IMG/VR virus record: IMGVR_UViG_3300025644_000002
DNA length: 39,488 bases
Origin: a virus
Lineage: Duplodnaviria > Heunggongvirae > Uroviricota > Caudoviricetes
Direction: 5' to 3' (one strand)
Numbering within the stretch: the stretch's first letter is position 1; the number at the start of each line of letters is the position of its first letter. A model generated the notes under the pieces. It worked only from the letters and a program-made list of their open reading frames with translations, did not search any database and was not told where the DNA came from. Positions 1 through 34,955 of this stretch are shown in pieces. Made by a program: the position numbers and the translations under genes.

Positions 1-1
1 T

Positions 2-3000
2 TCCGCTCGTACCACTTGAACCGGAAGTTCCACTTGACCCGCTAGTTCCAGACGACCCGCTAGTACCACTTGTACCACTCGTACCGCTTGAACCTGAAGT
101 ACCACTCGTACCACTTGTACCGCTTGAACCGCTTGATCCTGAAGTTCCACTTGAACCGCTTGACCCGCTTGAACCACTTGATCCGGAGGTTCCGCTTGTA
201 CCGCTTGACCCGGAAGTTCCACTCGTACCGCTTGACCCGGAGGTTCCGGAAGAGCCACTTGATCCTGCTGAACCGCTTGACCCAGAAGTTCCGCTTGTAC
301 CGCTTGAACCTGAAGTTCCGCTTGAACCTGAAGTTCCTGAAGAACCGCTTGAACCTGCCGAACCGCTTGAACCTGAAGTACCACTCGTACCGCTTGATCC
401 TGAAGTACCACTCGTACCGCTTGATCCGGAAGTCCCTGAAGATCCGCTTGAACCTGCTGAACCGCTTGAACCACTCGTACCGCTTGAACCACTAGTCCCT
501 GCATCTCCTGTACGGAAATAATTTAAAACTAGACGATCTAGATTTGAGAAAGGTGATGCTGCGGAAGAATCTACGTTAGTTACTCCGATCTGCCAGTATC
601 CTGGTCCCTCGGTTATAGAATTCACTTGGAATATTAATCAGTTTTCAGGTACATAAGTCTCGCTGAGCACGATGTGACCTTTAACCGCGCTAGTAGAGTC
701 GTCGAAGGTTGCCAGTAACCCCTGTACATCTACCGCTAAAATGTCCTCATCGGAACAGATTATAACGGTAGCCGCGTTTTGAGTCCCATTGTTTAATCGT
801 AAGTCTCCAGATCCCGGATCTGCTACAGTTGTTGAGCTGTCAAAGTTGTACTGGACATGTCCGGCTGCATTTCCGGTGTTACCAGATGATCCAGACGTTC
901 CGCTTGAACCGCTTGAACCGCTTGAACCGCTTGATCCTGAAGTTCCACTTGAACCGCTTGACCCGCTTGAACCACTTGATCCGGAGGTTCCGCTTGTACC
1001 GCTTGACCCGGAAGTTCCACTCGTACCGCTTGACCCGGAGGTTCCGGAAGAGCCACTTGATCCTGCTGAACCGCTTGACCCAGAAGTTCCGCTTGTACCG
1101 CTTGAACCTGAAGTTCCGCTTGAACCTGAAGTTCCTGAAGAACCGCTTGAACCTGCCGAACCGCTTGAACCTGAAGTACCACTCGTACCGCTTGATCCTG
1201 AAGTACCACTCGTACCGCTTGATCCGGAAGTCCCTGAAGATCCGCTTGAACCTGCTGAACCGCTTGAACCACTCGTACCGCTTGAACCACTAGTCCCTGC
1301 ATCTCCTGTACGGAAATAATTTAAAACTAGACGATCTAGATTTGAGAAAGGTGATGCTGCGGAAGAATCTACGTTAGTTACTCCGATCTGCCAGTATCCT
1401 GGTCCCTCGGTTATAGAATTCACTTGGAATATTAATCAGTTTTCAGGTACATAAGTCTCGCTGAGCACGATGTGACCTTTAACCGCGCTAGTAGAGTCGT
1501 CGAAGGTTGCCAGTAACCCCTGTACATCTACCGCTAAAATGTCCTCATCGGAACAGATTATAACGGTAGCCGCGTTTTGAGTCCCATTGTTTAATCGTAA
1601 GTCTCCAGATCCCGGATCTGCTACAGTTGTTGAGCTGTCAAAGTTGTACTGGACATGTCCGGCTGCATTTCCGGTGTTACCAGATGATCCAGACGTTCCG
1701 CTTGAACCGCTTGAACCGCTTGAACCGCTTGAACCGCTTGAACCACTTGATCCGGAGGTTCCGCTCGTACCGCTTGACCCGGAAGTTCCACTCGTACCGC
1801 TTGACCCGGAGGTTCCGGAAGAGCCACTTGATCCTGCTGATCCGCTTGAACCTGAAGTTCCTGAAGTTCCGCTTGACCCGGAAGTTCCGCTTGATCCTGA
1901 TGATCCGCTTGAACCGCTTGAACCTGAAGTTCCTGAAGTTCCGCTTGATCCCGAAGTTCCGCTTGAACCGCTTGAACCTGCCGATCCACTTGAACCTGAA
2001 GTTCCTGAAGTTCCACTTGACCCGGAGGTTCCGCTAGAACCTGAAGTTCCTGAAGTTCCGCTTGATCCTGAAGTTCCTGAAGTTCCGCTTGATCCTGAAG
2101 TTCCGCTTGATCCTGAAGTTCCACTTGTACCGCTTGATCCTGAAGTACCACTCGTACCGCTTGAACCTGAGGTTCCGGAAGAACCGCTTGAACCTGCTGA
2201 ACCGCTTGACCCAGAAGTTCCGCTTGTACCTGAAGTTCCGCTTGAACCTGAAGTTCCGCTTGTACCTGAAGTTCCACTTGAGCCTGAAGTACCACTTGAA
2301 CCAGAGGTTCCGCTTGAACCGCTTGAACCTGCTGAACCGCTTGACCCAGAAGTACCACTAGTTCCGCTTGAACCTGAAGTACCACTCGTACCACTTGTAC
2401 CGCTTGACCCCGAAGTACCACTAGTACCGCTTGTACCGCTTGATCCTGAAGTTCCGGAAGAACCACTTGATCCTGCAGATCCACTTGAACCTGAAGTTCC
2501 TGAAGTTCCTGAAGTTCCGCTTGACCCGGAAGTTCCAGAAGTTCCTGAAGTTCCGCTTGATCCTGAAGTTCCAGAAGTTCCTGAAGTTCCGCTTGATCCG
2601 CTTGTTCCAGATGACCCGCTAGTACCACTCGTACCGCTAGTTCCGCTTGATCCTGAAGTTCCACTTGTACCGCTAGTTCCACTTGAGCCGCTTGTACCTG
2701 AATCCCCCGTAACCCCTTTTTCTCCAGAAGATCCTGAGGTTCCGCTCGTACCACTTGAACCGGAAGTTCCACTTGACCCGCTAGTTCCAGACGACCCGCT
2801 AGTACCACTTGTACCACTCGTACCGCTTGAACCTGAAGTACCACTCGTACCACTTGTACCGCTTGATCCTGAGGTTCCGCTTGATCCGCTTGAACCGCTT
2901 GAACCGCTTGATCCTGAAGTTCCACTTATACCGCTTGATCCTGAGGTTCCGCTAGTTCCGGAAGTTCCACTTGAACCCGAAGTTCCGCTAGTTCCGGAAG

Positions 3001-5419
3001 TTCCGCTTGAACCGGAAGTACCGCTTGAACCGGAAGTTCCTGCAGCTCCGCTTGATCCTGAAGTTCCGCTAGTTCCAACTCCTCCAGAAGACCCAGAGGT
3101 ACCGCCAGTACCGCTTGAACCTGAAGTTCCGCTAGTTCCGGAAGTTCCGCTTGAACCGCTTGTTCCAGCGTCTCCTTTCGCTCCAGAAGAGCCCGAGGTC
3201 CCACTTGACCCGCTAGATCCTGAATCCCCAATAACTCCTTTTTCTCCAGAAGATCCCGAAGTTCCACTCGTACCGCTTGATCCTGAAGTTCCTGAGGTTC
3301 CGCTTGATCCTGAAGTTCCGCTAGTTCCTGAAGTTCCACTTGAACCGCTTGAACCTGCTGAACCGCTTGAACCTGAAGTACCACTCGTACCGCTTGATCC
3401 GGAAGTGCCGCTTACACCGCTTGAACCGCTTGAACCGCTTGATCCAGAGGTACCACTCGTACCGCTAGTTCCGCTTGAACCTGAAGTTCCAGAAGTTCCT
3501 GAAGTTCCGCTTGAACCGCTAGTTCCACTTGAACCGCTTGAACCGCTTGACCCTGAGGTTCCACTTGTACCGCTAGTTCCACTTGATCCAGAAGTACCGC
3601 TTGTACCCGCAGTCCCGCTTGACCCAGAAGTACCGCTAGTACCGCTAGTCCCGCTTGACCCAGAAGTACCGCTAGTACCGCTAGTTCCGCTTGATCCTGA
3701 AGTACCGCTAATTCCTGAAGTCCCACTTGACCCTGAAGTACCGCTAATTCCTGAAGTCCCACTTGACCCTGAAGTACCACTCGTACCACTATCCCCGCTT
3801 GAGCCCGAAGTACCGCTCGTACCGCTAGTTCCACTTGACCCCGAAGTACCACTCGTACCGCTTGATCCGCTTGATCCGCTTGAACCGCTTGATCCTGCTG
3901 ATCCGCTTGAACCTGAAGTTCCACTTGTACCGCTTGATCCTGAAGTTCCGCTTAATCCTGAAGTTCCGCTTGATCCTGAAGTTCCACTTGTACCGCTTGA
4001 ACCTGACGTTCCGCTTAAACCGGAAGTACCGCTTGTGCCGCTTGAACCGCTTGAACCGCTTGATCCAGAAGTCCCGCTTGATCCGGAAGTCCCAGAAGAA
4101 CCGCTCGTACCACTCGTACCGCTTAATCCAGAAGTACCACTTGTACCTGCACCTCCTGAAGATCCGGAAGTTCCGCCTATACCGCTCGTACCACTTGACC
4201 CGGAAGTTCCGTCTATTCCGCTTGAACCGCTTGTTCCTGAAGTTCCAGCTGCTCCACTCGATCCCGAAGTTCCGCTAGTTCCGGAAGTACCACTCGTACC
4301 GCTTGATCCACTTGAACCGCTTGATCCGCTTGAACCTGAAGTACCACTCGTACCGCTTGAACCTGAAGTACCACTCGTACCGCTTGAACCGCTTGAACCG
4401 CTTGATCCACTCGAACCCGAAGTACCACTAGTACCGCTAGTTCCACTTGACCCCGAAGTACCACTCGTACCGCTTGATCCTGAGGTTCCGGAAGAACCAC
4501 TTGACCCTGAAGCTCCGGGCACCCCCGTATCTCCACTTGAACCTGAAGTTCCTGCTGCTCCGCTTGATCCTGAAGTACCGCTCGTTCCAACTCCTCCAGA
4601 AGACCCAGAAGTACCGCCAGTACCGCTTGATCCTGAAGTTCCGCTTGAACCAGAAGTTCCGCTTGAACCACTCGTTCCAGCGTCTCCTTTAGCTCCAGAA
4701 GAGCCTGAGGTTCCGCTTGATCCACTTGATCCTGAATCTCCAGTAACTCCTTTCTCTCCAGAAGATCCTGAAGTTCCACTCGTACCGCTTGATCCGGAAG
4801 TTCCGGAAGAACCGCTTGATCCTGCTGACCCGCTTGAACCAGAAGTTCCTGAAGTCCCGCTTGAACCAGAAGTTCCCGAAGTTCCGCTTGATCCTGATGA
4901 TCCGCTTGATCCTGAAGTTCCTGAAGTCCCGCTTGATCCAGAAGTACCACTCGTACCGCTTGAACCGCTTGAACCTGCTGAACCGCTTGAACCTGAAGTA
5001 CCACTCGTACCACTTGTACCACTCGTACCGCTTGATCCTGAAGTTCCGCTTGATCCTGAAGTTCCAGAAGTTCCGGAAGTCCCCGAAGATCCGCTTGAAC
5101 CTGCTGATCCGCTTGATCCAGAAGTACCGCTAGTTCCGGAAGTACCGCTAGCACCGCTAGCTCCGCTTGATCCGGAAGTACCGCTAGCACCGCTAGCTCC
5201 GCTTGAGCCAGAAGTACCTGAGGTACCTTCAGAGGCTACTCATGTACTACCTGTTCATGTTTTTAATACTTCATTAGATGAATCTCACCAAGTCTGTCCA
5301 GTTATTGGGGACGCTGGTGGTGCGGCGGATGCGTTGTGGGATTTTGCTGAAAATGTTGCATTAGCCTGTGATTGGCTATATACATCCGATATTTGTTTGG
5401 CTTTTATTTGTCCTGACAT
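2..5419 (-). CDS. Very long collagen-like (Gly-Ser/Thr-Ser)n virion fiber protein, 3'-truncated by window edge (>1800 aa, TGA=Trp)
   Basis: ATG at 5419. N-terminus PPASPITGQTW*DSSNEVLKT*TGST*V matches the common phage fiber motif P..P..G..W.D.....LK.W.G..W with TGA at the Trp positions (5285, 5255, 5240). About 1150 aa of GSS/GTS triplets follow, then two identical globular domains joined in frame through TGA at 1436 and 638. Confidence 0.8.
119..1732. repeat. Exact tandem duplication with 798-bp period (globular domain + GST linker) inside the fiber gene
   Basis: 119-934 reads identical to 917-1732 by eye. Equivalent ORF-track ends (495/1293, 638/1436) are offset by 798 nt. Confidence 0.9.
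1690..5230. repeat. Degenerate 9-bp microrepeat array (e.g. CCGCTTGAA/CCTGAAGTT) encoding GSS/GTS triplets on the minus strand
   Basis: Direct reading. A longer block (GEKGV[T/I]GDSG..GAKGDAG..GTGG..GGVG..GAAG) recurs at ~4530-4770 and ~3030-3260. Confidence 0.95.
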
Positions 5420-5433
5420 GCGGGGTCTCCAAA

Positions 5434-5814
5434 CTAGTTATAGTTTACGTATTCTTTTTCCTCAATAAACATAGAGTTGGTTTCGTTGTTAATTATTTTT
5501 TTTAAATTAGCTCTAGTGTCATTAGTGTAATACACTGCTCGCGCTAATTTTATAAATTCCTCATCAAACTCTTTTAATTGTTCTTTTCTACGCAGTTGGT
5601 CCTCTATATCCCATAGCTCTGCATTACAATTATAAAGATTCATATAACTTTCAGAATCCAATGAGAAATTCAATAGCTCTACAACGCTATGTTGTAAAGC
5701 CTCAAATTCTGTTTGTACATTTTTAATCTTTTCTGGGTCAGTAAAATTCTCAGTTTTTAATTGAAGAATAGATAGCTTATCTATTAATTCTCCATTAGAT
5801 ATTTCAATTTTCAT
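5434..5814 (-). CDS. DUF6165-like protein
   Basis: Motifs IEISNGELIDKLSILQLK, NAELWDIED and FIKLARAVYYTNDTR resemble DUF6165, which is typically found beside glycosyltransferases. Recognised by eye. Confidence 0.7.
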   Translation of the reverse strand: MKIEISNGELIDKLSILQLKTENFTDPEKIKNVQTEFEALQHSVVELLNFSLDSESYMNLYNCNAELWDIEDQLRRKEQLKEFDEEFIKLARAVYYTNDTRANLKKIINNETNSMFIEEKEYVNYN

Positions 5815-8800
5815 AAATAGTATTAATTACCTCCTCTGGTAAAATACTTGAAGAGCACTCGAAATTCTTTCCTCTAGGACATCAATTTCAATCGCCTCTA
5901 TCAAATTTTTCCTCATTAAAACAATTATGACATACTGTGTCTTTATGCATTCTAACACATTTAAATTCATACCAAGGCGCTGTAAAGCCGGAAATCATTA
6001 ATACTGGCACCTTTAACGCTCAAGCTAGCCAAGCTAATCCTGAACTCAATCCCATAAAGAATGTAGCATGTTTCAATATACGCATTGTTTCAGTAAGATT
6101 CAAGTTAGTTTTGTCGATTATGCCATTTAATTCACTTTCTTCTTTACTTATAACTACTACTTTATAACCTTTTGAATTTAAATAGTCTACCACAGTTTGC
6201 CATCCTCCAGGATAATTTCAATATTTACACTGAGCTGTGGAGTGGGCCGCTAGACATACATAAGGACCGTCAATATCAGTATGTCCTTTAATCTTAGCCA
6301 TTTGCGGTAATAGTTCTTCATACTCGAGACCTAAAATATCACAAGCAACCTCTTGTAAAGGAATTGAAAATGGATTTCTTTTATGAAGGAAATCATCATC
6401 TTCTCTAATACCTACTACATAGCTTGCGTATAAATTGTCAACAGTAGTTCCCGGACTAATAAACTTTAATTCTGGATAATCAAGCAAATGATTATGGAAT
6501 GTAGACACTATTACTTCGCAATTATGTTTTTCTTTAAACTTTTGAACATAGGGTATTCAAGCCAAAGTATCTCCTAGAGAGCTGCTATCTAACGCAATTA
6601 ATACTCGTTTATTATCACAATTAAAAGCGTATTGGTTCACTAATTCTTCACCTTTATGTACCGTAATCATATAATTGGTAAAATATACTCTACTTGCTTT
6701 AATTCAGCTATTAGCAGATACTCCAATTTTCTCATATACAACCTCTTCTAAATCTTGATCAATAAATTTTATATCATAAGTATGGTCAGATTCTGATCCT
6801 CACAATTCTACAAATGGTCCATCTACAAAATTATGGTCAACTGATATATTTCCATTTAATATAGAAGTTGATTCCCCGTAATAAAGATAATCTAAATAAC
6901 CAGGCAATTCTGTTTCCTCACTCTCATAAACTTCAAGTAATTTTCTTTTTTCTTCTAAAGGATATATTTTAGTTTTATCTCCTATCGAGAAAGTATATAA
7001 ATTTCTAGGACTAATTTCTATCATAGCATCATGAAGAGATTTATGCTGTACATGCCCGTACTCTCCGTTAGAATTATGAGTTACTATTTTTTTATAATAT
7101 CTTCTAGAAGTTTCACCTAATATAAATTTTCTTAAATATTTTTCATCAAATTTATCATATAAAGAGTCAGGAAAATCTCATAAAGCATATTCTCCTACTC
7201 CTAAAGTTTCCATAGCTTTGCTAAACTCATACGCTCTAATTGGATTACTTTTTCCCGTTACTGATATAACTTTTCAATCTTCAGGGTCTTTTAATAAGTC
7301 GTATCCTCCAAAAATAAGTTCGTCGTCCGGGTGAGCTACTATCATCAACTTATTAGGAAGTTTAGTATCAGCCTTCACGACAAATGTGTTATATTTTTCT
7401 ATTCTTTTTTTGTAATCTTTTGTAACTAGCTCATTCTTGAATAATTTACCATCTTTATATATTTGATATTTATTTAGTTTAGAACTTAATCCCAAATTAT
7501 GATGAAAAAATTTAGAACCTGAAAAATCTAAATTAATTTCCTTACCATTATATTTTAACAAATATTTAGAATCATCAGTAATATTTGGTTTACCTAATAC
7601 TAACCTAAATTCTTTCTTATATACAAATCCATATATATTAAGAGCTCCATCAGTAATTAAATTCTTAACTCCATAATCCTTTTCTACATCTATATATTTT
7701 CTTATTTTTAGATTAGACTCTCCCTCTGTTTTAATAATAAGATCATAAATCCAAGGCTCTAGATACAGTCTAGAATCCCCATCTCTTGAAGAAGAAGCCT
7801 TAAAATATTGCTGGGAATTATTTATATTATTGAACGCCGTAAAATTTTTAGAAATTGAAAAAAATGTCATAGCAAAAGAATCCTCATCTGTATCATAGTA
7901 GTAAAATGAGCCATGAGCGCCTTTACCTAAATCTTCTTTATGAATTTTAAATAAATCCTTTTGCGGAATCATATCGTAGTTTAAAAAATGAATTATGTCT
8001 ATATCTCGTGATTTACAGTATACTTCTGCATTTTTAAATAATGAAAATACTGCATAAGAATGATTTGGAGTTTCATGATTTACAGATTTAACAAAATAAT
8101 CTTCGTTATCAAATCAAAAAGTAACCGGGATTTCTATAATTTCATTGTTACTATCATATACATAATGTTCTACAGATTTTTGTATTTCTAAACTAACTGG
8201 GTAGTGTGTTACTAACAAAATATCATATCCGAATTCCTTAATTCGCTTTATACATTTTTTTAAAACATCTATTTTTTCTTTGGTGTTAGTATAGGCTAAA
8301 ATAGCCACTACTTCTTTTAAAGGTTTATTATCTTCTATAGCTTGTAATATATCATTTCTTGTTAGATCCACCATTTCTACTTCTTTTTCTAACCTAATTA
8401 TATTATTTTCTATTTCAGATAAAGTTTTTTCGTCTAGTTCCTTAGTTATTTCCACACCATTATGAGAATCTAAAAGACTAATATTCTTAACATCTTTTAA
8501 ATTTCCTAAATTAATCACCACCACTTTACTATCTGTTTCAAATTTAATATGCGCCTCTCTCTCCAATACATCTCTAGTATCCTCATAGCAAGTGTATTTA
8601 AATAATACTTCATTATCATCTAATCTTTCTCTAAAAATTAGGGCCAATAAATTTTTATTTTTTTCAAATAAATTAACTTTATAAGTTGTCAAGCTTATGG
8701 AATCCTTTATTGTATATTGAGAAGCTTCTGTTTTTTCATCTAATTTTATAATATCATCTCAGATATTTTGCATTCTAAAACGCTCATAAAGTCACTTCTC

Positions 8801-11707
8801 CAATTGTCTTTCTGAAAGCTCTAAGTATTCTTGTAAAGAATCTATTCCCTCAAATCCTTTAAATTTAGTGGTAACTGAAAACATAAGAACTCTAACATTT
8901 TCAAAAGTTATATTGTCTTCGTTTGATTGACTTGTAATAAAACATCCTGAACTATTAGTGGTCTTTAATAGAGTTCTAAATTTAATGAAAGGATTGTATT
9001 TTAACAAAACATCATAATTTAAAAAATGTATAGTATCAACCTCTAAGTTTTTACAGTAATTAAAGGCATTTTTAAATAATGTAAACGCTGCATAAGAATG
9101 ATTTTTATTTTTACTATAAAAAGTTTCAAAATAAACTCCAGAAAGATCTCCTCAAAAAAATTCAGGAGTTTCAAATATTTCATTATTTGGATCATACACA
9201 TAGTGATCTACTTCATCTTTTATCTCCTGAGGAACATCATAGTGGGTTGATAATAATATATCGTATCCAAACCCCTTAATTTGCGCTATGCGTTCTTTTA
9301 ATAATTTTTCTTTACTAGCGGTATCAGTATAAGAGCTTATAACTACAATCTCTTTCTTAATTTTTTTAAGAAACCTCAATACTTTTGAAGCAGTATTAGG
9401 ATTTTTGTTATCGATTTCTGGATGATACGCTAGTATATTAGCTTCGCTTTTTGGGTAAATCTCATCCATTTCTTTGGGCCAATTCTCCATAAAAAACATA
9501 GAAGAATAATTTAAGGAGGCTATATGCCCCTGGCTAAAGCCCATAACATTGTCATGTGGAGAAATTCAAGTTATAGGAAGAAACTCGTCATATTTATATT
9601 TTCAAAATAACATGTTAATAATTCGTTCTTCAGAGCATGCCGTGTCATCTACAAAAATTTTACCATCTGAATCTGTATTACTAATGTTCCTTATATAAGC
9701 CTCTTCTCGGAGAACTTCTTCAAAAAAACGTTGAGATCTTTTATCATACATAAATATACCTGTGGCCACTGTGTGACCGCTATATGGTAAATTACCGGTA
9801 TCTCACCCGTATAGTTCGCAAAGCTCTTCTCCATGCTTCTTTTCTCTTCGCCCATCCCCATCCTCTCTAAAATGTAATAAAGAGGGGTATCTATATCTCA
9901 TACATAGTGGATAATGTTTTAGTTTATCTACATAAGTATTAAGATGGTCTATATTTTCCGACACTACCATATCTCCATCTAAAAAAATATAATAATCAAA
10001 TTCATCATTTTTTGTAGTTTCTAATGCAGCCGCTATTCTAGCAAAATAGTTTTGGCTATCTACATGACCTACCTGGTTTACTTTGCCTCCAGAATATTCT
10101 ATTTTTTTATTTATTACTCTCGAATATGAAAAGGGTACTTCACAATTAAATCCATAAACAATTATTGGGAGTTTTGAAAATTCTAATAAACTTTTTACAC
10201 ACGCCTCTACATAAGGCATATATTTGAGATCACCGCCTACTACATACGCTCCTAATTTTGCAGCAGTACTTTGTATTTTATTTGATACCTTATCAAGCAA
10301 AAATTGATCTTCGCCATTTATCCTAATTTTTGTATCTTTTGAAATAGGAAAACTAGACGCCCAAGAATCTTCATTTGATAATTCTGCTTTATATACTTCT
10401 TTATTATCTTCAAGAAATTCAACAGTATATTGCTTTTTTATAGGTCCATTTATTTTTATTAATGGAGTATTATTACTTTTTATAGCTGTAATATAATTTC
10501 CAAAATCTTTATAATAATTTTCATTTACATTATTATTTAATATATCAACAGCAGTTAATGCCGCATTCTGTCAACTAAATTTATTGACTCTAGGAGCTTT
10601 AAGAAGTGCCTGGCCCTTATTTATATTTCTATTTTCATAAGTGCTTCTCATTATTTCCTTTAAGTGGTCGAAGTCAGGCTCATCTCATAATCCTACTCCT
10701 TCTGTAGCAAACATAAAAGGCTTCATAGGTCTTTGATCTATAGTCCTTACTTGTTGGGAGATTCCTCCCGCAAAATCTAATTGTGCCGGATGGCTTGAGC
10801 ATATGGTGGGAATTCCAGAAGCAATAGCTTCTATTAAGGGTAAGTTCCACCCTTCCGATCTAGCGCAAGATACAAAACAATCTCCATATTTAAGATAATT
10901 AATGTAATCTTTTCTAGGTAAAAAAGGTATAATTTTAATATTTGGATGTTCTATTTTATGAAAAGCTAAACGTTCTTTAGTAGAATTCATTCCATCCACC
11001 GAGTGGGGATTCTCGATAGAACACACCAGATCGATAGGTTCATTTGCACCAAATTCTTCACTAAAAGCTCTTAAAATTTCTGTTGTAGATTTTCTATGAT
11101 CCCATCTGCCAAATAATACAAACTTATATCGGTCGTCTTTAAACTCGTCTGGTCTTTTTCCAGAACTAACGTTAAAGATTGAGGTGTCCACAGCCTCCGG
11201 AACTACAAATACTCTATCAGCAGGGTATCCTTGGGCGATACTACAGTCGCGTTGCCATTTAGTGGGTACTCATAACATTTCATTTCGTAATAGTGCTTCA
11301 AAAAACTCATTTGGATATAAAGTGCTTTCTCAGACATTATAGCCTATGTTGTAGCCGGGATAACTATTTTCGAATCAGTAATGGTGGTTTGTTTCTGATA
11401 AAATTATGTTAACAGGATTTTCTGGAGGAAGAGTTCCGACTCCGTTATACATCTCAAAATCTATACCTTTGTACACCCCACTATCCATACCTTCGTCACA
11501 AGTCTGCCTAATGAACATTTCTTTATCAATGTCTGTTAGATATGTTTCCTTTTCATGAGGACGATCAGATACTCCATCTCAGGAAGGCCCTACAGAAAAA
11601 TTTCTTAATTTAACTGGTAAGTAGTTATTTAAAGCTCTAAAAAATCCACGAGCATGAGCGGCATAGCCAGTTTGCCCGACAAAGGAAGTGTGACCATATA
11701 TATTCAT
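5795..11707 (-). CDS. ~1970-aa multi-domain glycosyltransferase: GT4 + DxD GT-A + two repeated domains + PIG-L deacetylase + Aah/TibC-like heptosyltransferase (TGA=Trp)
   Basis: Seven track ORFs share one frame and are joined only by TGA (about 23 by manual count; no TAA/TAG until 5795). Motifs with * = TGA: YNV*EST, L*VPTKWQ, SEGWNLPLIEA, KFS*QNAA (GT4); YIFLDGD (DxD); VAHPDDE..THNSNGEYGHVQH (PIG-L); SSLGDTLA*IPY..HNC..STF and GLSSGLAWLA*AL..ISGF..C.NC (heptosyltransferase/GT9-like). Confidence 0.85.
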
Positions 11708-14176: not shown

Positions 14177-15100
14177 CTACGACAGTGTAAGTTTAGCAAG
14201 CGCTTTGGAGTTACCAAATCCGATGCCAATGTGTTCGTACACGGCCCATGTGATAATATTCTTTTTCTTTTCGATCCAGAATTTAGTATCGTTTAATACT
14301 AAGAATTGTCCTAAGAATTCTTGTGGTGCAAAAGCGTAGATCTTGTTCTGTAACAGTGCAGTTGACCCGTCCTGTTTGAACACTTTATTGGAAACAACTA
14401 CTTTACGTCCGAAGAGCGTATTGTAAGTGAAACCATTAATGTAGATTTCGCTTCCTGCTGAGTCACCAATAGTTGATGCATCATACAAGAATAATCTGTT
14501 ATACATTGTAGAATCCATTAATAGGGTATCGCAACGTAATTCCGCTCCGTCTAAAACGTCAAACAGTTCTTTTAGGCTTGATTTTTCAATCACACCTGTT
14601 TCACTGCCGGATGCTCTATAAGAACCGGTCTTAGCGTTTGCAACGGGCATTAGCGCGTCTACACCTTCTAAGAATTTTTCATCTTCAATGCGTTGTAAAT
14701 CGAGTACTGAGTTCTTCTCAATTATGTCAGTCAGTGGCATTTCATAGGCCAACAGCTCTTCTTCAGTCTTCTGAAAGTCTTCAGAACTAACCTGATACAG
14801 GGGTATCTCGAATCGATCGCCCATTACGTATCTAAGGTTTGGCTGTCCGCGCATGTTCAGTGCCATGGCTTCTGAGTCAGGCTCGATGTCCACGATTTTA
14901 ACTAGGCCGTCGTGATTGACAGATCTTGTCAAGTCAGCTTTAGTTACATATTGTGGATTTATTATTTTTCTTGCAAAAGAAACTTCACGTAGTTTTTGTC
15001 TAACGAAAGCTGATCCTTCCATAGCGACTTTCTCAAGTCCCGCAGGGGAATTAAGCTTTTCTACAAATAACTCATTTAGCGTACTAGCTGAATATTCCAT
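14177..15100 (-). CDS. Major capsid protein (probable HK97 fold, 307 aa)
   Basis: Size, position after protease/scaffold/decoration genes, strong SD (AAGGAGG) and a downstream terminator. The VSFARKII..E-loop-like and RKVVVSN P-domain-like segments fit. Confidence 0.8.
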   Translation of the reverse strand: MEYSASTLNELFVEKLNSPAGLEKVAMEGSAFVRQKLREVSFARKIINPQYVTKADLTRSVNHDGLVKIVDIEPDSEAMALNMRGQPNLRYVMGDRFEIPLYQVSSEDFQKTEEELLAYEMPLTDIIEKNSVLDLQRIEDEKFLEGVDALMPVANAKTGSYRASGSETGVIEKSSLKELFDVLDGAELRCDTLLMDSTMYNRLFLYDASTIGDSAGSEIYINGFTYNTLFGRKVVVSNKVFKQDGSTALLQNKIYAFAPQEFLGQFLVLNDTKFWIEKKKNIITWAVYEHIGIGFGNSKALAKLTLS

Positions 15101-16817: not shown

Positions 16818-18539
16818 TTATTGCCCTCCTATGATATCTTTATACAATAAATCCAAATCTTCCGGACTTATTTCTGATAATAACTCTGCTGTTTTAAAAA
16901 ACTTAGGTCTCTTAATAGCTGTTGCTACAGTGGCCCCCACTAGTCCTGCGAGTAATGGATGTTTTCTGGCAAAGTTCTCTGTTGGTTTTAAAGGTACACC
17001 TTTTCTAGCTTTATTCTCCTGTTTACCTGCGTAATAGTAGGCGGTTGGTACTGTTATTAAAGAAGACATTAGGAATTTGTCCACAGCTCCTAAAGAGGCT
17101 TCTTTATTAAATGCTACACTTTGGCTGGCTAAAGAACCGGCCGTTCCCGCTCCCACTAATACTGGAAGTAACCAAGGATATTTAACTACAAACGATCTAA
17201 ATTTATTAATCGATGGATTATTAAATACCTTCGCATACCCGTAATATAAGCTTCCTAGAAGTCCTAATGGAACTACTGGATTTCTATGTGCTGAAACAGG
17301 TGGTTCCTCTTTCTGCGTAAATAAGAAACGTTTTATTCCGCTACGTTCTCTAGAAACATTACTTGGATAGGTTGTTGCTTGAGACTCATATCCTACTTTA
17401 TGTATTCCTCTTGCTAATACTCATTGTTTAGTAAGAGACATATCTGGGACTGACTTCAAAAGCACCCCTGCGATCTTGCTATTAAAATTATCAAAAGTTA
17501 CATTGGGTAATTCTGTAGGGACTGTGTCCTTATCTACAATAAAACAAACTCCATTTTCAGCCCATTTATCTGCCGCTTCTTTTTGTCCAAAAACGTACGC
17601 AGCCAATTTTTGAAAATCTTCTCTAACTGGTGCAATTCGTAAAGCCATCATTGTAGAAAGTATCTCGTCGATATTATACTTAGAAAGCTTTTCGATTGTT
17701 TCATCTGAAAGTCTTTTCTGAGTATGTAATAGGATATTTTTTGGATCTTGGTCCGCAATCTCTATTTTAACGTCTACTTTTTTTCTAATTTCTGCTCTTG
17801 GTTCAAACCCGGCAGCTTTAAAAAGCTGTTTTGTTTCTTTTGGTAATTCCTCTGCAATTTTTATAACACGAGGTCTACTAGATGATTTTGCTTCAAGAAG
17901 CCTAATAAAACTAGCAGTCCTGTCGGCAGGGATAGTTACAACACTGATATCAAAAAATTTCGGCATTGTATTTATTGCGTAAACTTTTCTACCGTCGGAT
18001 AAAATATTATTCATACGATACTTTAAGTGGTCACAATATTGAGCTCTCGTTTGAGCTTTGTTTCCGCAAATGGAGCATATGTCAAAAGGAACTTTAGTTC
18101 CCATAGAACAAAATGGTAATTCTCCTTTTTGCATTTTTGTAATAACGTCTGCACCTTTTTTAGAATCTAATTCTAATATTAATTCTACTCGATGCATTGT
18201 AGGATTATAATGTGAAAATAAAACCTTACCTAACGATTTTCTTGGATCCTTATTTACATGGTGTCTGTACACATGACCTAAAGCTTCAAATGTTTTATGA
18301 TATTGTTTTAAGGCCTTTTCTGGAAAATGATCACCATTTCTATTAGAGCTATAAAATTCTCCAGCAGATAAAGCATTTACTAAAGCATATACTTTGTCAA
18401 CACGCTTTTTTAAAGAATTAATATAATCTACTAACTCTTCTGAATACGACGCAGTTTTCTCCATGGTTCCCTTACCGATAAGGGTAAACACCTCAGAGTT
18501 ATTGTCTCCGTAAAAGTATTCTGCGCGTTTTTCTATCAT
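16818..18539 (-). CDS. Putative prohead (maturation) protease with Cys-rich insertion and C-terminal extension (573 aa, 1 TGA)
   Basis: NGDHFPEKAL, HRVELI, SMGTKVPFDICSICG..YCDHL and FFDISVVTIPAD resemble HK97-type prohead proteases. TGA at 17421 joins in frame to ORF 16818-17156. Confidence 0.65.
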
Positions 18540-20124: not shown

Positions 20125-21663
20125 TTATTTTACTGCCCCAAACATTAGTTCGCAAGCTATAGTTCCAAAAATACAAGCATGGGCAAAATCATCTGGACCT
20201 ATATTAATATATTTCATAAATCCTCGCTCTTCGTCATAGTCAATTTGTATATTCATAATGTCTTCTTTAAAAGAATCCATTGATACTGTATGTGGAAATT
20301 CTATTCGTAAATTTTTAATGTTTTCAAAGAATTCAGTCATTACTTTAGTTCTATTTAAAGTGTAGGCGGGCATCTTGTCATTCCATTGAATTTTATTTTT
20401 CTGGGTACCGGAATGTTGAAATGCTACTACTTTTTCATAACCTATTCTAGCTCTGAGTTCTGAATTTGGCGCTTCGCCCATTCCATAATCTGAAGCTACA
20501 CTAACGCAATTTCACTTAGCCATTATTTTAGGAATTTCTGGAACGATAAAACTATAATCGGCTTCTTTTCCAATAAACTTTTTAGCATAAACTACTCGTA
20601 ATTTATTAGAGCGAAGTTGCATTACTACTGCTACGGTATAAGATTTTTCTGAATTAACTGGGCCATAATCGATAGCTAATACACTAGGATAATTACGCTG
20701 TTCCTCGTTAGGATCCTCTTCCATTAACGGGCCGGTACTGGCTCTATCTATTTCAAATTCTGTAACAGGTGATACTCCAGCATCATATTCTAACGCTAAT
20801 ACTTCATTGTGAAAAAAAGCTTTAGACCAATGCCTTTGTTTATCTAATATATCTTCCTGCCAATTAACCCAGGGTGCTTTTGCAAAGTGTAAAGCGCAAA
20901 CTCTATACCCTTCCATAGCTGTAGGATTTTTTAAAGAATATGTAGAAACTCATTCTCCTCCTACACTAATATCTAAAGGTCTACCACACTTCTTACATAT
21001 AACTCCGAAATCCCCAATGTTTTCTTCATCTAAAATATTTCAATGATTACAACTTTGGCACTTAACTATATATTCGCACATAGTAGATTTATGCCATAAA
21101 TCAGCTAAAGTTCCTCTAGAACGTTTTGGGGTACCAGAATATACTATCCATTTATAATCAGAGTGTGTCATAGTTTCCTGTACCACAGGAATAATTTCAC
21201 TAAGCATGTCCTGACACTCATCGAAAATATTCATATCCGCAGAAAATCCACGTAATTTATCAGCAGAAAGCAGCGCATATCTTATATGCATTAAAGATCC
21301 ATTAGCTAATTCTTTATGGTGAACATTATCTACTAGAGAAGTATTCATATAGTGATCTTTCATAAAAGGGCTACCTTCTAAAAAAGGTTTCACCCTATCA
21401 TGACTGAATATCTTAGCTTGAGTAATCGTAGGAGCTACGTATAAAGTTTTAAAGAAAGGAATCATACCAGAATTAGCTGTTACCATTCCCGCCATTGTAG
21501 TGGATTTAGCCGTCTGTCTGCTAAATTGCATAACTTTCTTTTTAGGCGAAGTATCCCACACACGTCGCATATGGGGGTAATCATCTAAAGAGAAGGGGGC
21601 GCCATTTAGCCAGAAAAATGATTCTGCAAATTCGCTACGTGATATTGCTATCTTTTGAGACAT
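20125..21663 (-). CDS. terL: Terminase large subunit (512 aa, 3 TGA=Trp)
   Basis: Walker A SRQTAKST, Walker B IFDECQD, SGTP, CxxC..CxxC insert, nuclease AIDYG and SDYGMG. Three track ORFs join via TGA at 21040, 20950 and 20512 (CNH*NILD, GE*VST, AK*NC). Confidence 0.9.
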
Positions 21664-34861: not shown

Positions 34862-34933
34862 AGGGGCGTAGTTCAATTGGTAGAGCTCCGGTCTCCAAAA
34901 CCGGCAATGCGGGTTCGAGTCCTGCCGTCCCTG
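34862..34933 (+). tRNA. trnW: tRNA-Trp, anticodon CCA (34895-34897); 3' CCA not encoded
   Basis: Full cloverleaf: AGGGGCG/CGTCCCT acceptor stem, CCGGT-CTCCAAA-ACCGG anticodon arm, GCGGG-TTCGAGT-CCTGC T arm. Confidence 0.97.
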
Positions 34934-34955
34934 CACCTAACAATGGAGAGCACAT

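What the first reader, a model, noticed from the sequence alone, without database searches (positions are those of the whole stretch)
2..11707. Putative virion O-glycosylation system: glycosyltransferase megaenzyme + DUF6165 + Ser/Thr collagen-like fiber
Seen: three consecutive co-oriented genes. The first is a ~1970-aa fusion of GT4, a DxD GT-A domain, two repeated domains, a PIG-L deacetylase and an Aah/TibC-like heptosyltransferase. The second is DUF6165-like. The third is a fiber with well over 1000 residues of GSS/GTS. Established: Aah/TibC add heptose to Ser/Thr in repetitive autotransporter passengers, and some phages glycosylate virion proteins. Inference: a single-polypeptide assembly line (initiate, extend, de-N-acetylate) that glycosylates the adjacent fiber for stability, adhesion or shielding. 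The fused architecture is invisible under code 11.
Basis: partly seen in the sequence, partly recalled or inferred. Interest (0 to 1): 0.85.

Follow-up and report, generated by a model that had tools for sequence, protein, structure and literature searches.

The report
Phage enzyme that sugar-coats collagen-like fibres
An abundant marine giant phage encodes a 1970-residue enzyme made of five sugar-transferring modules plus a sugar deacetylase, and comparison with other phages and bacteria suggests it sugar-coats the phage's own proline-free Gly-Ser/Thr-Ser fibres, which no paper found here describes and nobody has tested.

Summary
On the minus strand, read with TGA = Trp, three tightly packed genes follow the head genes. 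The first is a 1970-aa soluble enzyme (5795-11707; 23 in-frame TGA, no TAA/TAG). The second is a DUF6165 protein (5434-5814). The third is a collagen-like fibre (2-5419, cut by the window end): 501 Gly-X-Y triplets, X = Thr/Ser, Y = Ser in 91%, one Pro.

The enzyme holds GT4, a conserved DxD module of unassigned family, two duplicated modules that fold as GT-A glycosyltransferases, a PIG-L deacetylase, and a TibC/Aah-type module above NCBIfam's equivalog cut-off.

The fibre target is an inference from comparative data:
- 37 of 86 TibC-anchored viral loci carry a Ser/Thr-rich, Pro-poor collagen-like gene, against 0 of 114 random viral loci.
- Only 16 of 118 unselected phage collagen loci have that composition.
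- Classical bacterial relatives sit beside AIDA-type adhesins instead.
- A sister phage places ADP-heptose synthesis genes between enzyme and fibre.

No glycan has been shown. The adenine-contacting Arg of TibC is not conserved, so the donor sugar is uncertain.

This scan has already reported the same kind of module on at least seven other phage genomes. What this window adds is the largest enzyme so far, the fold of its repeat modules, and tests of the DUF6165 linkage. No paper found describes the pairing.

The parts
5795..11707 (-). Whole glycosyltransferase megaenzyme gene: 1970 aa, read with TGA = Trp, soluble
   Evidence: One open frame under code 4 with 23 TGA and no TAA/TAG. The highest Kyte-Doolittle 19-residue window is 1.57, so no membrane segment is apparent. 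One public assembly calls the same 1970-aa product (L410).
10508..11707 (-). Module 1 (residues 1-400): GT4-type GT-B glycosyltransferase
   Evidence: Pfam Glycos_transf_1, residues 188-309, E 7e-10. phrog_2170 glycosyltransferase, residues 116-393, E 8e-25. An E-x7-E motif lies at residues 285-293.
9368..10246 (-). Module 2 (residues ~488-780): conserved DxD module, candidate GT-A, family unassigned
   Evidence: Alignment A2 (19 sequences) has an invariant D-x-D at residues 577 and 579. The module recurs in 31 other TibC-type fusions. There is no significant Pfam, PDB-profile or profile-profile match; the best is 6mw5, a GT8-type enzyme, at E 1.4.
8333..9355 (-). Module 3 (residues ~785-1125): repeat domain R1, GT-A fold by homology to R2
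   Evidence: 41% identical to R2 over 198 residues, E 2e-43. It carries the same H-F-L-N-Y-D motif.
7373..8317 (-). Module 4 (residues 1131-1445): repeat domain R2, a GT-A fold followed by a beta-sandwich
   Evidence: AlphaFold2 model with a 33-row alignment: pLDDT 88, pTM 0.84. Foldseek matches GT-A enzymes: ArnC, glycogenin, COLGALT1, LH3 and TarP at E 3e-5 to 3e-4 in the PDB, and nucleotide-diphospho-sugar transferases at E 4e-7 in AFDB. D1245 is invariant within an [E/N]-x-D motif.
7013..7348 (-). Module 5 (residues 1454-1565): PIG-L/LmbE-type de-N-acetylase
   Evidence: Pfam PIG-L, E 2e-10, covering profile positions 1-128 of 129. The AHPDDE motif lies at residue 1458 and H-x-x-H at 1552.
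5816..6856 (-). Module 6 (residues 1618-1964): TibC/Aah-type (BAHT) protein O-glycosyltransferase
   Evidence: TIGR04414: 265 bits against a cut-off of 200. TibC structures 4rap/4rb4: E 4e-47. Conserved equivalents: catalytic Asp-110, Thr-226, Lys-230, Trp-305, Phe-368 and all four iron-finger Cys. Arg-286 is Thr here, and 9 residues are missing from the beta-hairpin thumb.
5434..5814 (-). DUF6165 gene (126 aa); its start overlaps the enzyme's stop by 20 nt
   Evidence: Pfam PF19662, 52.7 bits. Homologues occur in 11 of 86 TibC-anchored viral loci, mostly directly adjacent, and in 0 of 232 control loci. Three of three other contexts place it beside GT4/GT9 genes.
2..5419 (-). Collagen-like fibre 1 (1806 aa in the window; 3' end cut by the window)
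   Evidence: 501 Gly-X-Y triplets: X = Thr 48% / Ser 44%, Y = Ser 91%, one Pro. Pfam Collagen, E 4e-196, plus tail-fibre PHROGs. The 3' part consists of near-identical 798-nt units of collagen plus a ~130-aa globular insert. The full length in the near-identical record is 1894 aa.

Best explanation
This is a late-expressed, cytoplasmic protein O-glycosylation module for the phage's own fibres.

- The C-terminal TibC/Aah-type module most likely attaches the first sugar directly to serine hydroxyls of the Gly-(Thr/Ser)-Ser repeats. The sugar is probably a heptose from an ADP-activated donor; this is inferred.
- The GT4 module and up to three GT-A-type modules most likely extend that sugar into a short oligosaccharide.
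- The PIG-L module most likely removes an N-acetyl group from a GlcNAc-type residue in it.
- The substrates are fibre 1 next door and very probably fibre 2, which has the same repeat type and lies 3.5 kb further on, outside the window.
- DUF6165 is a conserved small partner of GT9-type enzymes. Its biochemical role is unknown.

What is shown:
- gene structure and genetic code;
- family membership;
- catalytic motifs;
- the GT-A fold of the repeat modules;
- the cross-genome linkage between this enzyme clade and Ser/Thr-rich, Pro-poor collagen-like genes.

What is inferred:
- the acceptor;
- the donor sugars;
- the order of the steps;
- the benefit, which may be triple-helix stabilisation in the absence of Pro/Hyp, protease or lectin shielding, or adhesion.
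For: 1. Enzyme identity.
- TIGR04414 scores 265 bits against a cut-off of 200, and TibC scores E 4e-47.
- The catalytic base, the phosphate and sugar contacts and the four iron-finger Cys are conserved, and they are invariant across 32 relatives.
- TibC glycosylates serines of a repetitive protein in the cytoplasm (PMC4358343).

2. Linkage.
- 40 of 86 TibC-anchored viral loci hold a collagen-like run of at least 15 triplets, and 37 of these are Ser/Thr-rich and Pro-poor.
- The corresponding figures for 114 random viral loci are 1 and 0 (Fisher 1e-16).
- Where at least 6 kb is available on both sides, 20 of 29 loci have such a gene.

3. Specificity.
- Among 118 phage collagen loci picked only by a GG-N7 periodicity, 16 are of this type, against 37 of 40 beside TibC-like genes (p 6e-20).

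4. Not a single lineage.
- The linkage holds in all three enzyme size classes, and in 11 of 23 clusters at 60% identity.

5. Substrate switch with clade.
- 10 of the 19 closest bacterial/MAG loci have Ser/Thr collagen-like genes, against 1 of 61 distant ones.
- In the 6 distant loci sampled, the large ORF just downstream of the enzyme carries AIDA repeats in 3 (one also with an autotransporter beta-domain) and only a Hint domain in 2 more.

6. Sister phage L008.
- A 1915-aa homologue is followed by genes whose best matches are the HldE heptose-7-P kinase (E 5e-35) and the heptose-1-P adenylyltransferase (E 6e-34). Next comes a Gly-Ser/Thr collagen-like gene with in-frame TGA.

7. Timing and place.
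- The gene lies in the TGA-recoded module, directly after the major head protein, the head protease and the reported terL (20125-21663; not re-scanned here).
- No membrane segment is apparent.

8. A cultured phage has the same pairing.
- Microcystis phage Mel-JY01 carries an FkbM-TibC-like fusion 2.6 kb from an unannotated GTS/GSS collagen-like frame.
Against: - No glycan has been observed on any such fibre; everything about the acceptor is guilt by association.
- Fibres and this enzyme both sit in structural or hypervariable modules, so some linkage could reflect module membership. The compositional specificity argues against that but does not exclude it.
- About half of the TibC-anchored loci show no collagen-like gene within the flank available.
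- The TibC Arg-286 equivalent, which reads the adenine of ADP-heptose, is Thr here and varies across the clade.
- The beta-hairpin thumb needed for the TibC dodecamer has a 9-residue deletion.
- No ADP-heptose synthesis gene lies in the held 164 kb, which is 77% of the genome.
- In both repeat modules the first acidic residue of the metal motif is Asn, so these modules might be inactive.
Confidence: 0.6

Rival explanations
1. The enzyme remodels the host's surface glycans (LPS core, O-chain or capsule) during infection, for example to block superinfection. The fibre next door is a coincidence of the hypervariable structural region.
For: This is the published reading of glycosyltransferases and rfaE found among tail-fibre genes of pelagimyophages (PMC7029224). 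GT9 is best known for LPS heptosyltransferases, and GT4, GT-A and PIG-L enzymes are common in polysaccharide pathways. DUF6165 also lies beside ordinary GT9 genes in a bacterial contig.
Against: - The C-terminal module passes the equivalog cut-off of the protein-glycosylating TibC/Aah family. It scores only 24.8 bits against LPS heptosyltransferase I, whose cut-off is 185.
- It keeps the iron finger that, in TibC, serves dimerisation and substrate-protein recognition.
- The compositional specificity of the neighbouring collagen-like genes is unexplained by this reading.
- The gene is in the recoded late block, not among the early genes.
Confidence: 0.12
2. The enzyme does glycosylate virion proteins, but the main acceptors are other structural proteins (capsid, decoration or tail proteins), as in mycobacteriophages, and not the collagen-like repeats.
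For: Virion glycosylation of capsid and tail-tube subunits is established in mycobacteriophages (Freeman et al. 2023, as cited in PMC12619734). The gene follows the head genes directly. About half of the TibC-anchored loci have no collagen-like gene in the available flank.
Against: The enrichment is specific to Ser/Thr-rich, Pro-poor collagen-like genes, not to structural genes in general. BAHT enzymes act on long serine-bearing repeats, and the fibre offers about 675 serines in the window alone. In bacteria the BAHT substrate is typically the adjacent gene.
Confidence: 0.15
3. The polypeptide makes or edits a non-protein product (glycosylated DNA bases, a free oligosaccharide or a small molecule), or several of its modules are inactive relics.
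For: Phage glycosyltransferases often modify DNA (cited). Both repeat modules have Asn in place of the first acidic residue of the metal motif. Module 2 has no recognisable family.
Against: No DNA-glycosylating family matched. All the modules recur in many fusions that contain a TibC-type module, which argues for selection on a joint function. The catalytic motifs of the GT4, PIG-L and TibC-like modules are intact.
Confidence: 0.05

Closest known systems
TibC-TibA and Aah-AIDA-I of E. coli (bacterial autotransporter heptosyltransferases, BAHT; TIGR04414; PDB 4rap/4rb4; PMC4358343)
   Same: The C-terminal module is a true sequence relative, above the equivalog cut-off, with the same catalytic Asp, phosphate and sugar contacts and four-Cys iron finger. 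The logic is the same: a soluble enzyme encoded beside a long, serine-bearing repetitive surface protein that it hyperglycosylates before export or assembly.
   Different: - The host is a phage, not a bacterium.
- The likely acceptor is a Pro-poor collagen-like Gly-X-Y fibre, not a beta-helical autotransporter passenger.
- The module is the last of six in one 1970-aa chain, not a 406-aa protein that forms a dodecamer.
- The thumb hairpin is shortened.
- The adenine-reading Arg-286 is Thr.
Mycobacteriophage virion glycosylation (Freeman et al. 2023, Cell Host Microbe; seen here only as cited in PMC12619734)
   Same: Phage-encoded glycosyltransferases decorate the phage's own structural proteins.
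   Different: There the acceptors are the C-termini of capsid and tail-tube subunits, and the enzymes are separate small glycosyltransferases. There is no BAHT module, no collagen-like acceptor and no deacetylase.
BclA of the Bacillus anthracis exosporium (PMC6222408)
   Same: A microbial collagen-like protein whose Gly-X-Y triplets carry O-linked oligosaccharides on the hydroxy-amino acid of the repeat.
   Different: BclA triplets are Pro-Thr-Gly with Thr as acceptor. The glycan is a rhamnose-anthrose tetrasaccharide made by separate enzymes. BclA is not viral, and no BAHT enzyme is involved.
Shorter phage GT4-(PIG-L)-TibC-like fusions of ~700-1250 aa, found here and reported earlier by this scan
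   Same: The same N-terminal GT4 and C-terminal TibC-like modules, often the same PIG-L, DxD and R modules, and the same linkage to Gly-Ser/Thr collagen-like genes.
   Different: This protein is among the largest: 1970 aa against a common ~1240 aa. It has a duplicated GT-A-fold module and lacks the methyltransferase modules many others carry. It is readable only with TGA = Trp.

Membership tests
BAHT (TibC/Aah protein O-heptosyltransferases, TIGR04414) | Sequence score above the curated equivalog cut-off | tested here: met
   265.3 bits against a cut-off of 200, covering profile positions 7-371 of 374. TibC 4rap: E 4e-47.
BAHT (TibC/Aah protein O-heptosyltransferases, TIGR04414) | Catalytic base Asp-110 and donor contacts Thr-226, Lys-230 and Trp-305 | tested here: met
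   All four align with identical residues (D1713, T1824, K1828, W1893) and are invariant in 32 relatives.
BAHT (TibC/Aah protein O-heptosyltransferases, TIGR04414) | Arg-286, which contacts adenine N1 and underlies ADP-sugar specificity | tested here: not met
   It aligns with Thr-1874. The column in the phage-type clade reads T 15, R 6, A 3, I 3, S 2. The donor nucleotide is therefore uncertain.
BAHT (TibC/Aah protein O-heptosyltransferases, TIGR04414) | Four-Cys iron finger (Cys-339, 342, 358 and 370) | tested here: met
   All four Cys, and also Phe-368, are aligned and invariant. Metal binding itself was not tested.
BAHT (TibC/Aah protein O-heptosyltransferases, TIGR04414) | Beta-hairpin thumb and dodecameric ring | tested here: inconclusive
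   A hydrophobic pair (Ile-Ile) aligns with the Phe-265/Val-266 tip, but the 9 residues after it are deleted. The oligomeric state cannot be tested with these tools.
BAHT (TibC/Aah protein O-heptosyltransferases, TIGR04414) | The acceptor is an adjacent AIDA-type autotransporter passenger | tested here: not met
   The neighbour is a collagen-like fibre. Of the 6 distant bacterial loci sampled, AIDA repeats lie beside the enzyme in 3, one also with an autotransporter beta-domain.
BAHT (TibC/Aah protein O-heptosyltransferases, TIGR04414) | Transfers heptose from ADP-heptose to Ser | not testable with these tools
   Indirect only. A sister phage has HldE-like kinase and adenylyltransferase genes between the enzyme and the fibre. 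None lies in the held 77% of this genome.
GT4 (retaining GT-B glycosyltransferases, Pfam Glycos_transf_1) | Pfam score above the gathering cut-off, and the E-x7-E motif | tested here: met
   39.1 bits against a cut-off of 26.4. The motif lies at residues 285-293.
PIG-L / LmbE de-N-acetylases (PF02585) | Pfam score above the cut-off, and the metal-binding motifs (A/P)HPDD and HxxH | tested here: met
   41.6 bits against a cut-off of 28.2, over the full-length profile. AHPDDE lies at residue 1458 and HVQH at 1552.
GT-A fold nucleotide-sugar transferases (repeat modules R1 and R2) | GT-A Rossmann-like fold with an acidic metal motif after the fourth strand | tested here: met
   The model has pLDDT 88. 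Foldseek probability is 1.00 against many GT-A enzymes. The motif is N-Y-D here and E-Y-D in most relatives, with the Asp invariant. Activity was not tested.
GT-A fold (module 2, residues ~488-780) | Recognisable GT-A family or fold | tested here: inconclusive
   The DxD is invariant, but there is no significant Pfam, PDB-profile or profile-profile match.
DUF6165 (PF19662) | Pfam score above the cut-off | tested here: met
   52.7 bits against a cut-off of 27. 34 residues are invariant among 22 homologues.
Bacterial/phage collagen-like proteins (PF01391) | Long uninterrupted Gly-X-Y repeats | tested here: met
   E 3.6e-196; 501 triplets. Triple-helix formation cannot be tested here. The repeats lack the Pro and the charged residues that stabilise known bacterial collagens.

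The most novel reading that the evidence does not exclude
One polypeptide acts as a six-enzyme glycan assembly line. It builds a defined oligosaccharide that is started on serine (heptose or another ADP/NDP-sugar) and contains glucosamine, and it does so on hundreds of serines of Pro-free Gly-(Thr/Ser)-Ser fibres. The sugar coat takes over the role that hydroxyproline plays in animal collagen and holds the triple helix together. The five ConA-like lectin paralogues encoded between the two fibres dock onto that coat as exchangeable fibre-tip or side adhesins.
Probability: 0.15. Interest if true: 0.85.

Novelty: new variant of a known kind. Interest (0 to 1): 0.62.

Why it matters
If true, a widespread class of aquatic phages sugar-coats its host-recognition fibres. 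At least 573 viral stretches in IMG/VR encode a TibC-like relative, and about 1500 clusters at 50% identity exist across public proteins. The enzyme family involved is known only from the adhesins of diarrhoeagenic E. coli.

- It would reassign many 'LPS-modifying' auxiliary genes of marine phages to virion maturation.
- It would explain how proline-free Gly-Ser/Thr 'collagens' can be stable.
- It would add a second, mechanistically distinct kind of phage virion glycosylation to the mycobacteriophage case.
- It would supply compact multi-enzyme chains for protein glyco-engineering.

It can be tested directly, because a cultured phage (Microcystis phage Mel-JY01) carries the same pairing.

Tried and rejected
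- Single-sequence AlphaFold2 of residues 400-1460 gave pLDDT 33 and was unusable.
I did not send it by any other route.
- Complex prediction on a homologous pair from another locus (the 700-aa GT4-TibC-like protein of L324 with its DUF6165 neighbour) gave no verdict, with a score of 0.00. This says nothing either way about binding.
- Module 2 found nothing significant in four tests: Pfam on the segment and on all 19 alignment members, a PDB profile search, hhalign against the R-module alignment, and a search for stand-alone homologues with a Pfam label.
- Pfam found nothing for fibre 1's N-terminus, its ~130-aa insert or its C-terminal domain. PHROGs gave only families of unknown function for the C-terminal domain.
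- The search for ADP-heptose genes in the own genome found nothing. It used PfkB, CTP_transf_like and the four sister-phage proteins as queries. The record is only 77% complete, and the full 205-212 kb contigs could not be searched.
- Reading TGA as Gly (code 25) was considered and rejected, because TGA columns are Trp in the homologues.
- Literature searches for heptosyltransferase + collagen-like + phage, for DUF6165 and for DUF4254 found no relevant paper. The 'TibC' + bacteriophage search returned only unrelated hits.
- I recall Riftia cuticle collagen (galactosylated Thr stabilising a triple helix) as a precedent. The papers retrieved did not document it, so it is a lead from memory only.

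Full report
**1. What is there**

All three genes lie on the minus strand and are readable only with TGA as a sense codon.
- 5795-11707 is one frame of 1970 codons with 23 TGA, 9 TGG and no TAA or TAG until the final TAA. Under code 11 it falls into fragments of at most 232 aa.
- 5434-5814 encodes a 126-aa protein. Its start overlaps the enzyme's stop by 20 nt.
- 15 nt further on, at 5419, starts a collagen-like gene that runs off the window.
- Upstream in the same orientation are a major head protein (14177-15100), a head maturation protease (16818-18539) and the frame reported as terL at 20125-21663, which I did not re-scan. The module therefore belongs to the recoded late block.

**2. Genetic code**
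- Of the 14 TGA codons that fall inside my alignments, 10 lie in columns where the homologues have Trp.
- These include W1668, W1717, W1830, W1896, W1940 and W1942 in the TibC-like module, and W702, W714 and W1198 elsewhere.
- Several of them pair with Trp of crystallised TibC.
- So TGA = Trp, not Gly. Earlier notes of this scan on the same genome said the same; I checked it on this gene.

**3. The genome**
- The window corresponds to a 163,945-bp IMG/VR virus record that is 77% complete.
- The DUF6165 protein is found letter for letter in 81 blocks of public assemblies, on contigs of up to 211,738 bp, so the phage is abundant and has about 205-212 kb.
- Window bases 1 to about 299 differ from the record. 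This is a repeat-assembly difference inside the fibre.
- In the record the fibre is 1894 aa and ends in a roughly 155-aa non-collagen domain.

**4. Anatomy of the enzyme**

| Residues | Module | Evidence |
|---|---|---|
| 1-400 | GT4-type GT-B | Pfam E 7e-10; phrog_2170 E 8e-25; E-x7-E at 285-293 |
| ~488-780 | Conserved DxD module, family unassigned | Invariant D-x-D; recurs in 31 other fusions of the family; no significant family, structure or profile match |
| 785-975 and 1131-1322 | Repeat modules R1 and R2 | 41% identical, E 2e-43 |
| 1454-1565 | PIG-L de-N-acetylase | AHPDDE and HxxH motifs |
| 1618-1964 | TibC/Aah-type module | See section 5 |

- The second repeat was modelled with a 33-row alignment (pLDDT 88). 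It is a GT-A fold followed by a beta-sandwich. It matches ArnC, glycogenin, TarP and the human collagen glycosyltransferases COLGALT1 and LH3 at E 3e-5 to 3e-4, and AlphaFold DB nucleotide-diphospho-sugar transferases at E 4e-7.
- Its metal motif is [E/N]-Y-D with an invariant Asp. Both copies here have Asn at the first position.
- No membrane segment is apparent.
- In total the chain holds up to five transferase modules and one deacetylase.

**5. Is the last module a BAHT?**

It passes NCBIfam's equivalog cut-off (265 against 200 bits) and matches TibC structures at E 4e-47. I compared it with the features that Yao et al. define (PMC4358343).
- Conserved: the catalytic Asp-110, the beta-phosphate contacts Thr-226 and Lys-230, the heptose contact Trp-305, Phe-368, and all four iron-finger cysteines. 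All are invariant in 32 relatives.
- Pro-300, the stereoselectivity determinant, is Ser here, as in Aah.
- First departure: Arg-286, which reads the adenine, is Thr here and varies across the clade.
- Second departure: the thumb hairpin that builds the dodecamer lacks 9 residues.
- The module therefore works like a BAHT. The donor nucleotide and the oligomeric state are open.

**6. The fibre**
- Within the window it has 501 Gly-X-Y triplets, with X = Thr 48% / Ser 44%, Y = Ser 91% and one Pro. That gives about 675 serines.
- TibC modifies Ser, not Thr.
- The 3' part is built of near-identical 798-nt units, each a collagen stretch plus a ~130-aa globular insert.
- Beyond the window, the record encodes four paralogous ~230-aa ConA-like (Laminin_G_3) proteins plus a fifth ~230-aa ORF with only a weak DUF7604 hit. 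These are followed by a second fibre of 1289 aa with the same Gly-Ser/Thr-Ser repeats, the same kind of insert and a Peptidase_S74 chaperone end.

**7. Test of the enzyme-fibre link**

I fetched 86 viral loci anchored on TibC-like domains (79 non-redundant). As controls I fetched 114 viral loci hit by an arbitrary 14-mer, and 118 viral loci picked only for GG-N7 periodicity, that is, any collagen-like gene.
- Runs of at least 15 Gly-X-Y triplets occur in 40 of 86 anchored loci. In 37 of them Ser+Thr is at least 50% and Pro is below 5%.
- The random loci give 1 and 0 (Fisher 1e-16).
- Of the 118 unselected collagen loci only 16 have that composition; most are Pro/Gln-rich (p 6e-20).
- With at least 6 kb on both sides, 20 of 29 anchored loci have such a gene. 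The median distance is 4.5 kb.
- The link holds for stand-alone (~400 aa), two-module and large enzymes: 14/41, 9/19 and 10/19.
- It also holds in 11 of 23 clusters at 60% identity, so it is not a single lineage.

**8. Bacteria give the contrast**
- In one genome per species, 10 of the 19 loci closest to the phage type have Ser/Thr collagen-like genes. Some of these lie on large chromosomal contigs.
- Only 1 of 61 more distant loci does (Acetobacteraceae, Burkholderiaceae and others).
- In 6 distant loci sampled, the large ORF just downstream of the enzyme carries AIDA repeats in 3 (one also with an autotransporter beta-domain) and only a Hint domain in 2 more. This is the classical enzyme-then-substrate layout.
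- The neighbour type thus changes with the enzyme clade.

**9. Donor sugar**
- The closest large homologue (1915 aa, locus L008, a syntenic sister phage) is followed by four genes, and then by a Gly-Ser/Thr collagen-like gene with in-frame TGA.
- Two of the four best match the heptose-7-phosphate kinase and the heptose-1-phosphate adenylyltransferase halves of HldE (E 5e-35 and 6e-34, both below the equivalog cut-offs). The other two are a small phosphatase-like protein and a cupin.
- This supports heptose for the family.
- The held part of this genome has no such genes, so this phage would have to use host pools.

**10. DUF6165**
- Homologues occur in 11 of 86 anchored loci, usually immediately after the enzyme, and in none of 232 control loci.
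- In three further contexts the gene overlaps the end of a 700-aa GT4-TibC-like gene, or lies between GT4 and GT9 genes.
- 34 residues, many of them charged, are invariant among 22 homologues. That looks more like a ligand-binding or catalytic protein than a passive adaptor.
- Its role remains unknown.

**11. Literature**
- No paper in the library joins heptosyltransferase, collagen-like and phage.
- Searches for DUF6165 and for collagen-like fibre glycosylation in phages found nothing on this pairing.
- The published reading of glycosyltransferases and rfaE among pelagimyophage tail-fibre genes is host O-chain modification (PMC7029224). That is the main rival.
- Known precedents are mycobacteriophage capsid and tail-tube glycosylation (cited in PMC12619734) and O-glycosylated collagen-like BclA (PMC6222408).

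**12. Earlier work of this scan**
- At least seven follow-ups on other phage genomes reached the same reading. Others linked DUF6165 to GT9 enzymes.
- I treated these as leads and repeated the key tests independently.
- What this window adds:
  - the largest enzyme so far;
  - the GT-A fold of the recurrent R module;
  - the PIG-L step;
  - a composition-controlled test of the linkage;
  - the bacterial clade contrast;
  - a cultured phage with the same pairing, Microcystis phage Mel-JY01, whose collagen-like frame is unannotated.

**13. Verdict**
A fibre-directed, late, cytoplasmic O-glycosylation module is the best explanation (0.6).
- The sugars, the order of steps and the benefit are unproven.

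Noticed in passing
L012:6051-9532 (G000 92450-95931), just beyond window position 1: Five tandem ~230-aa genes lie between the two collagen-like fibres. Four match Laminin_G_3 (ConA-like lectin fold, E 3e-17 to 1e-4). The fifth has only a weak DUF7604 hit. They could be fibre-tip adhesins, or lectins that bind a glycan coat.
   Followed up: partly
L012:9575-13444 (P0214): A second fibre of 1289 aa has the same Gly-Ser/Thr-Ser repeats, two copies of a diverged version of the ~130-aa globular insert, and a C-terminal Peptidase_S74 intramolecular chaperone domain. A third, truncated collagen-like ORF lies at the very end of the record (G000 163552-163944).
   Followed up: partly
window 1-299 against G000 C1:91895-92193: The first ~299 bases of the window differ from the near-identical IMG/VR record, and a 205,402-bp public contig of the same phage ends inside this gene. 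The fibre's repeats break or confuse assemblies, so its true length (1894 aa in the record) is uncertain.
   Followed up: partly
window 82-381 and 880-1179; P0003 residues ~1245-1375 and ~1511-1641: The 3' part of the fibre gene is made of 798-nt units that are 96% identical. Each encodes a collagen stretch plus a ~130-aa globular insert that has no Pfam family.
   Followed up: partly
L008 (GCA_041294325.1 contig JBGCVI010164061.1): In the sister phage the 1915-aa enzyme gene reads through under code 11 with no in-frame TGA, while the collagen-like gene 2 kb downstream has in-frame TGA codons. Recoding therefore appears to differ between neighbouring late genes.
   Followed up: no
L407:14-2176 (+) (Microcystis phage Mel-JY01, PP395634.1): The deposited annotation calls ORFs on the opposite strand, with a PEVP-type low-complexity translation. 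The + strand encodes about 200 Gly-Thr/Ser-Ser triplets. This looks like a mis-annotated collagen-like gene.
   Followed up: partly
window 34862-34934 (+); G000 3602-3674: The only Trp tRNA found has anticodon CCA, and no UCA-reading tRNA lies in the held 164 kb. ARAGORN also reports an odd tRNA-like gene with a two-base 'cc' anticodon loop at G000 3602-3674.
   Followed up: no
L009:13665-14828 and L009:17323-20130: In another phage a TnpB/Cas12f-like (OrfB_IS605) gene sits directly after the GT4-methyltransferase-TibC-like fusion. The T4-type portal gene nearby carries an intein.
   Followed up: no
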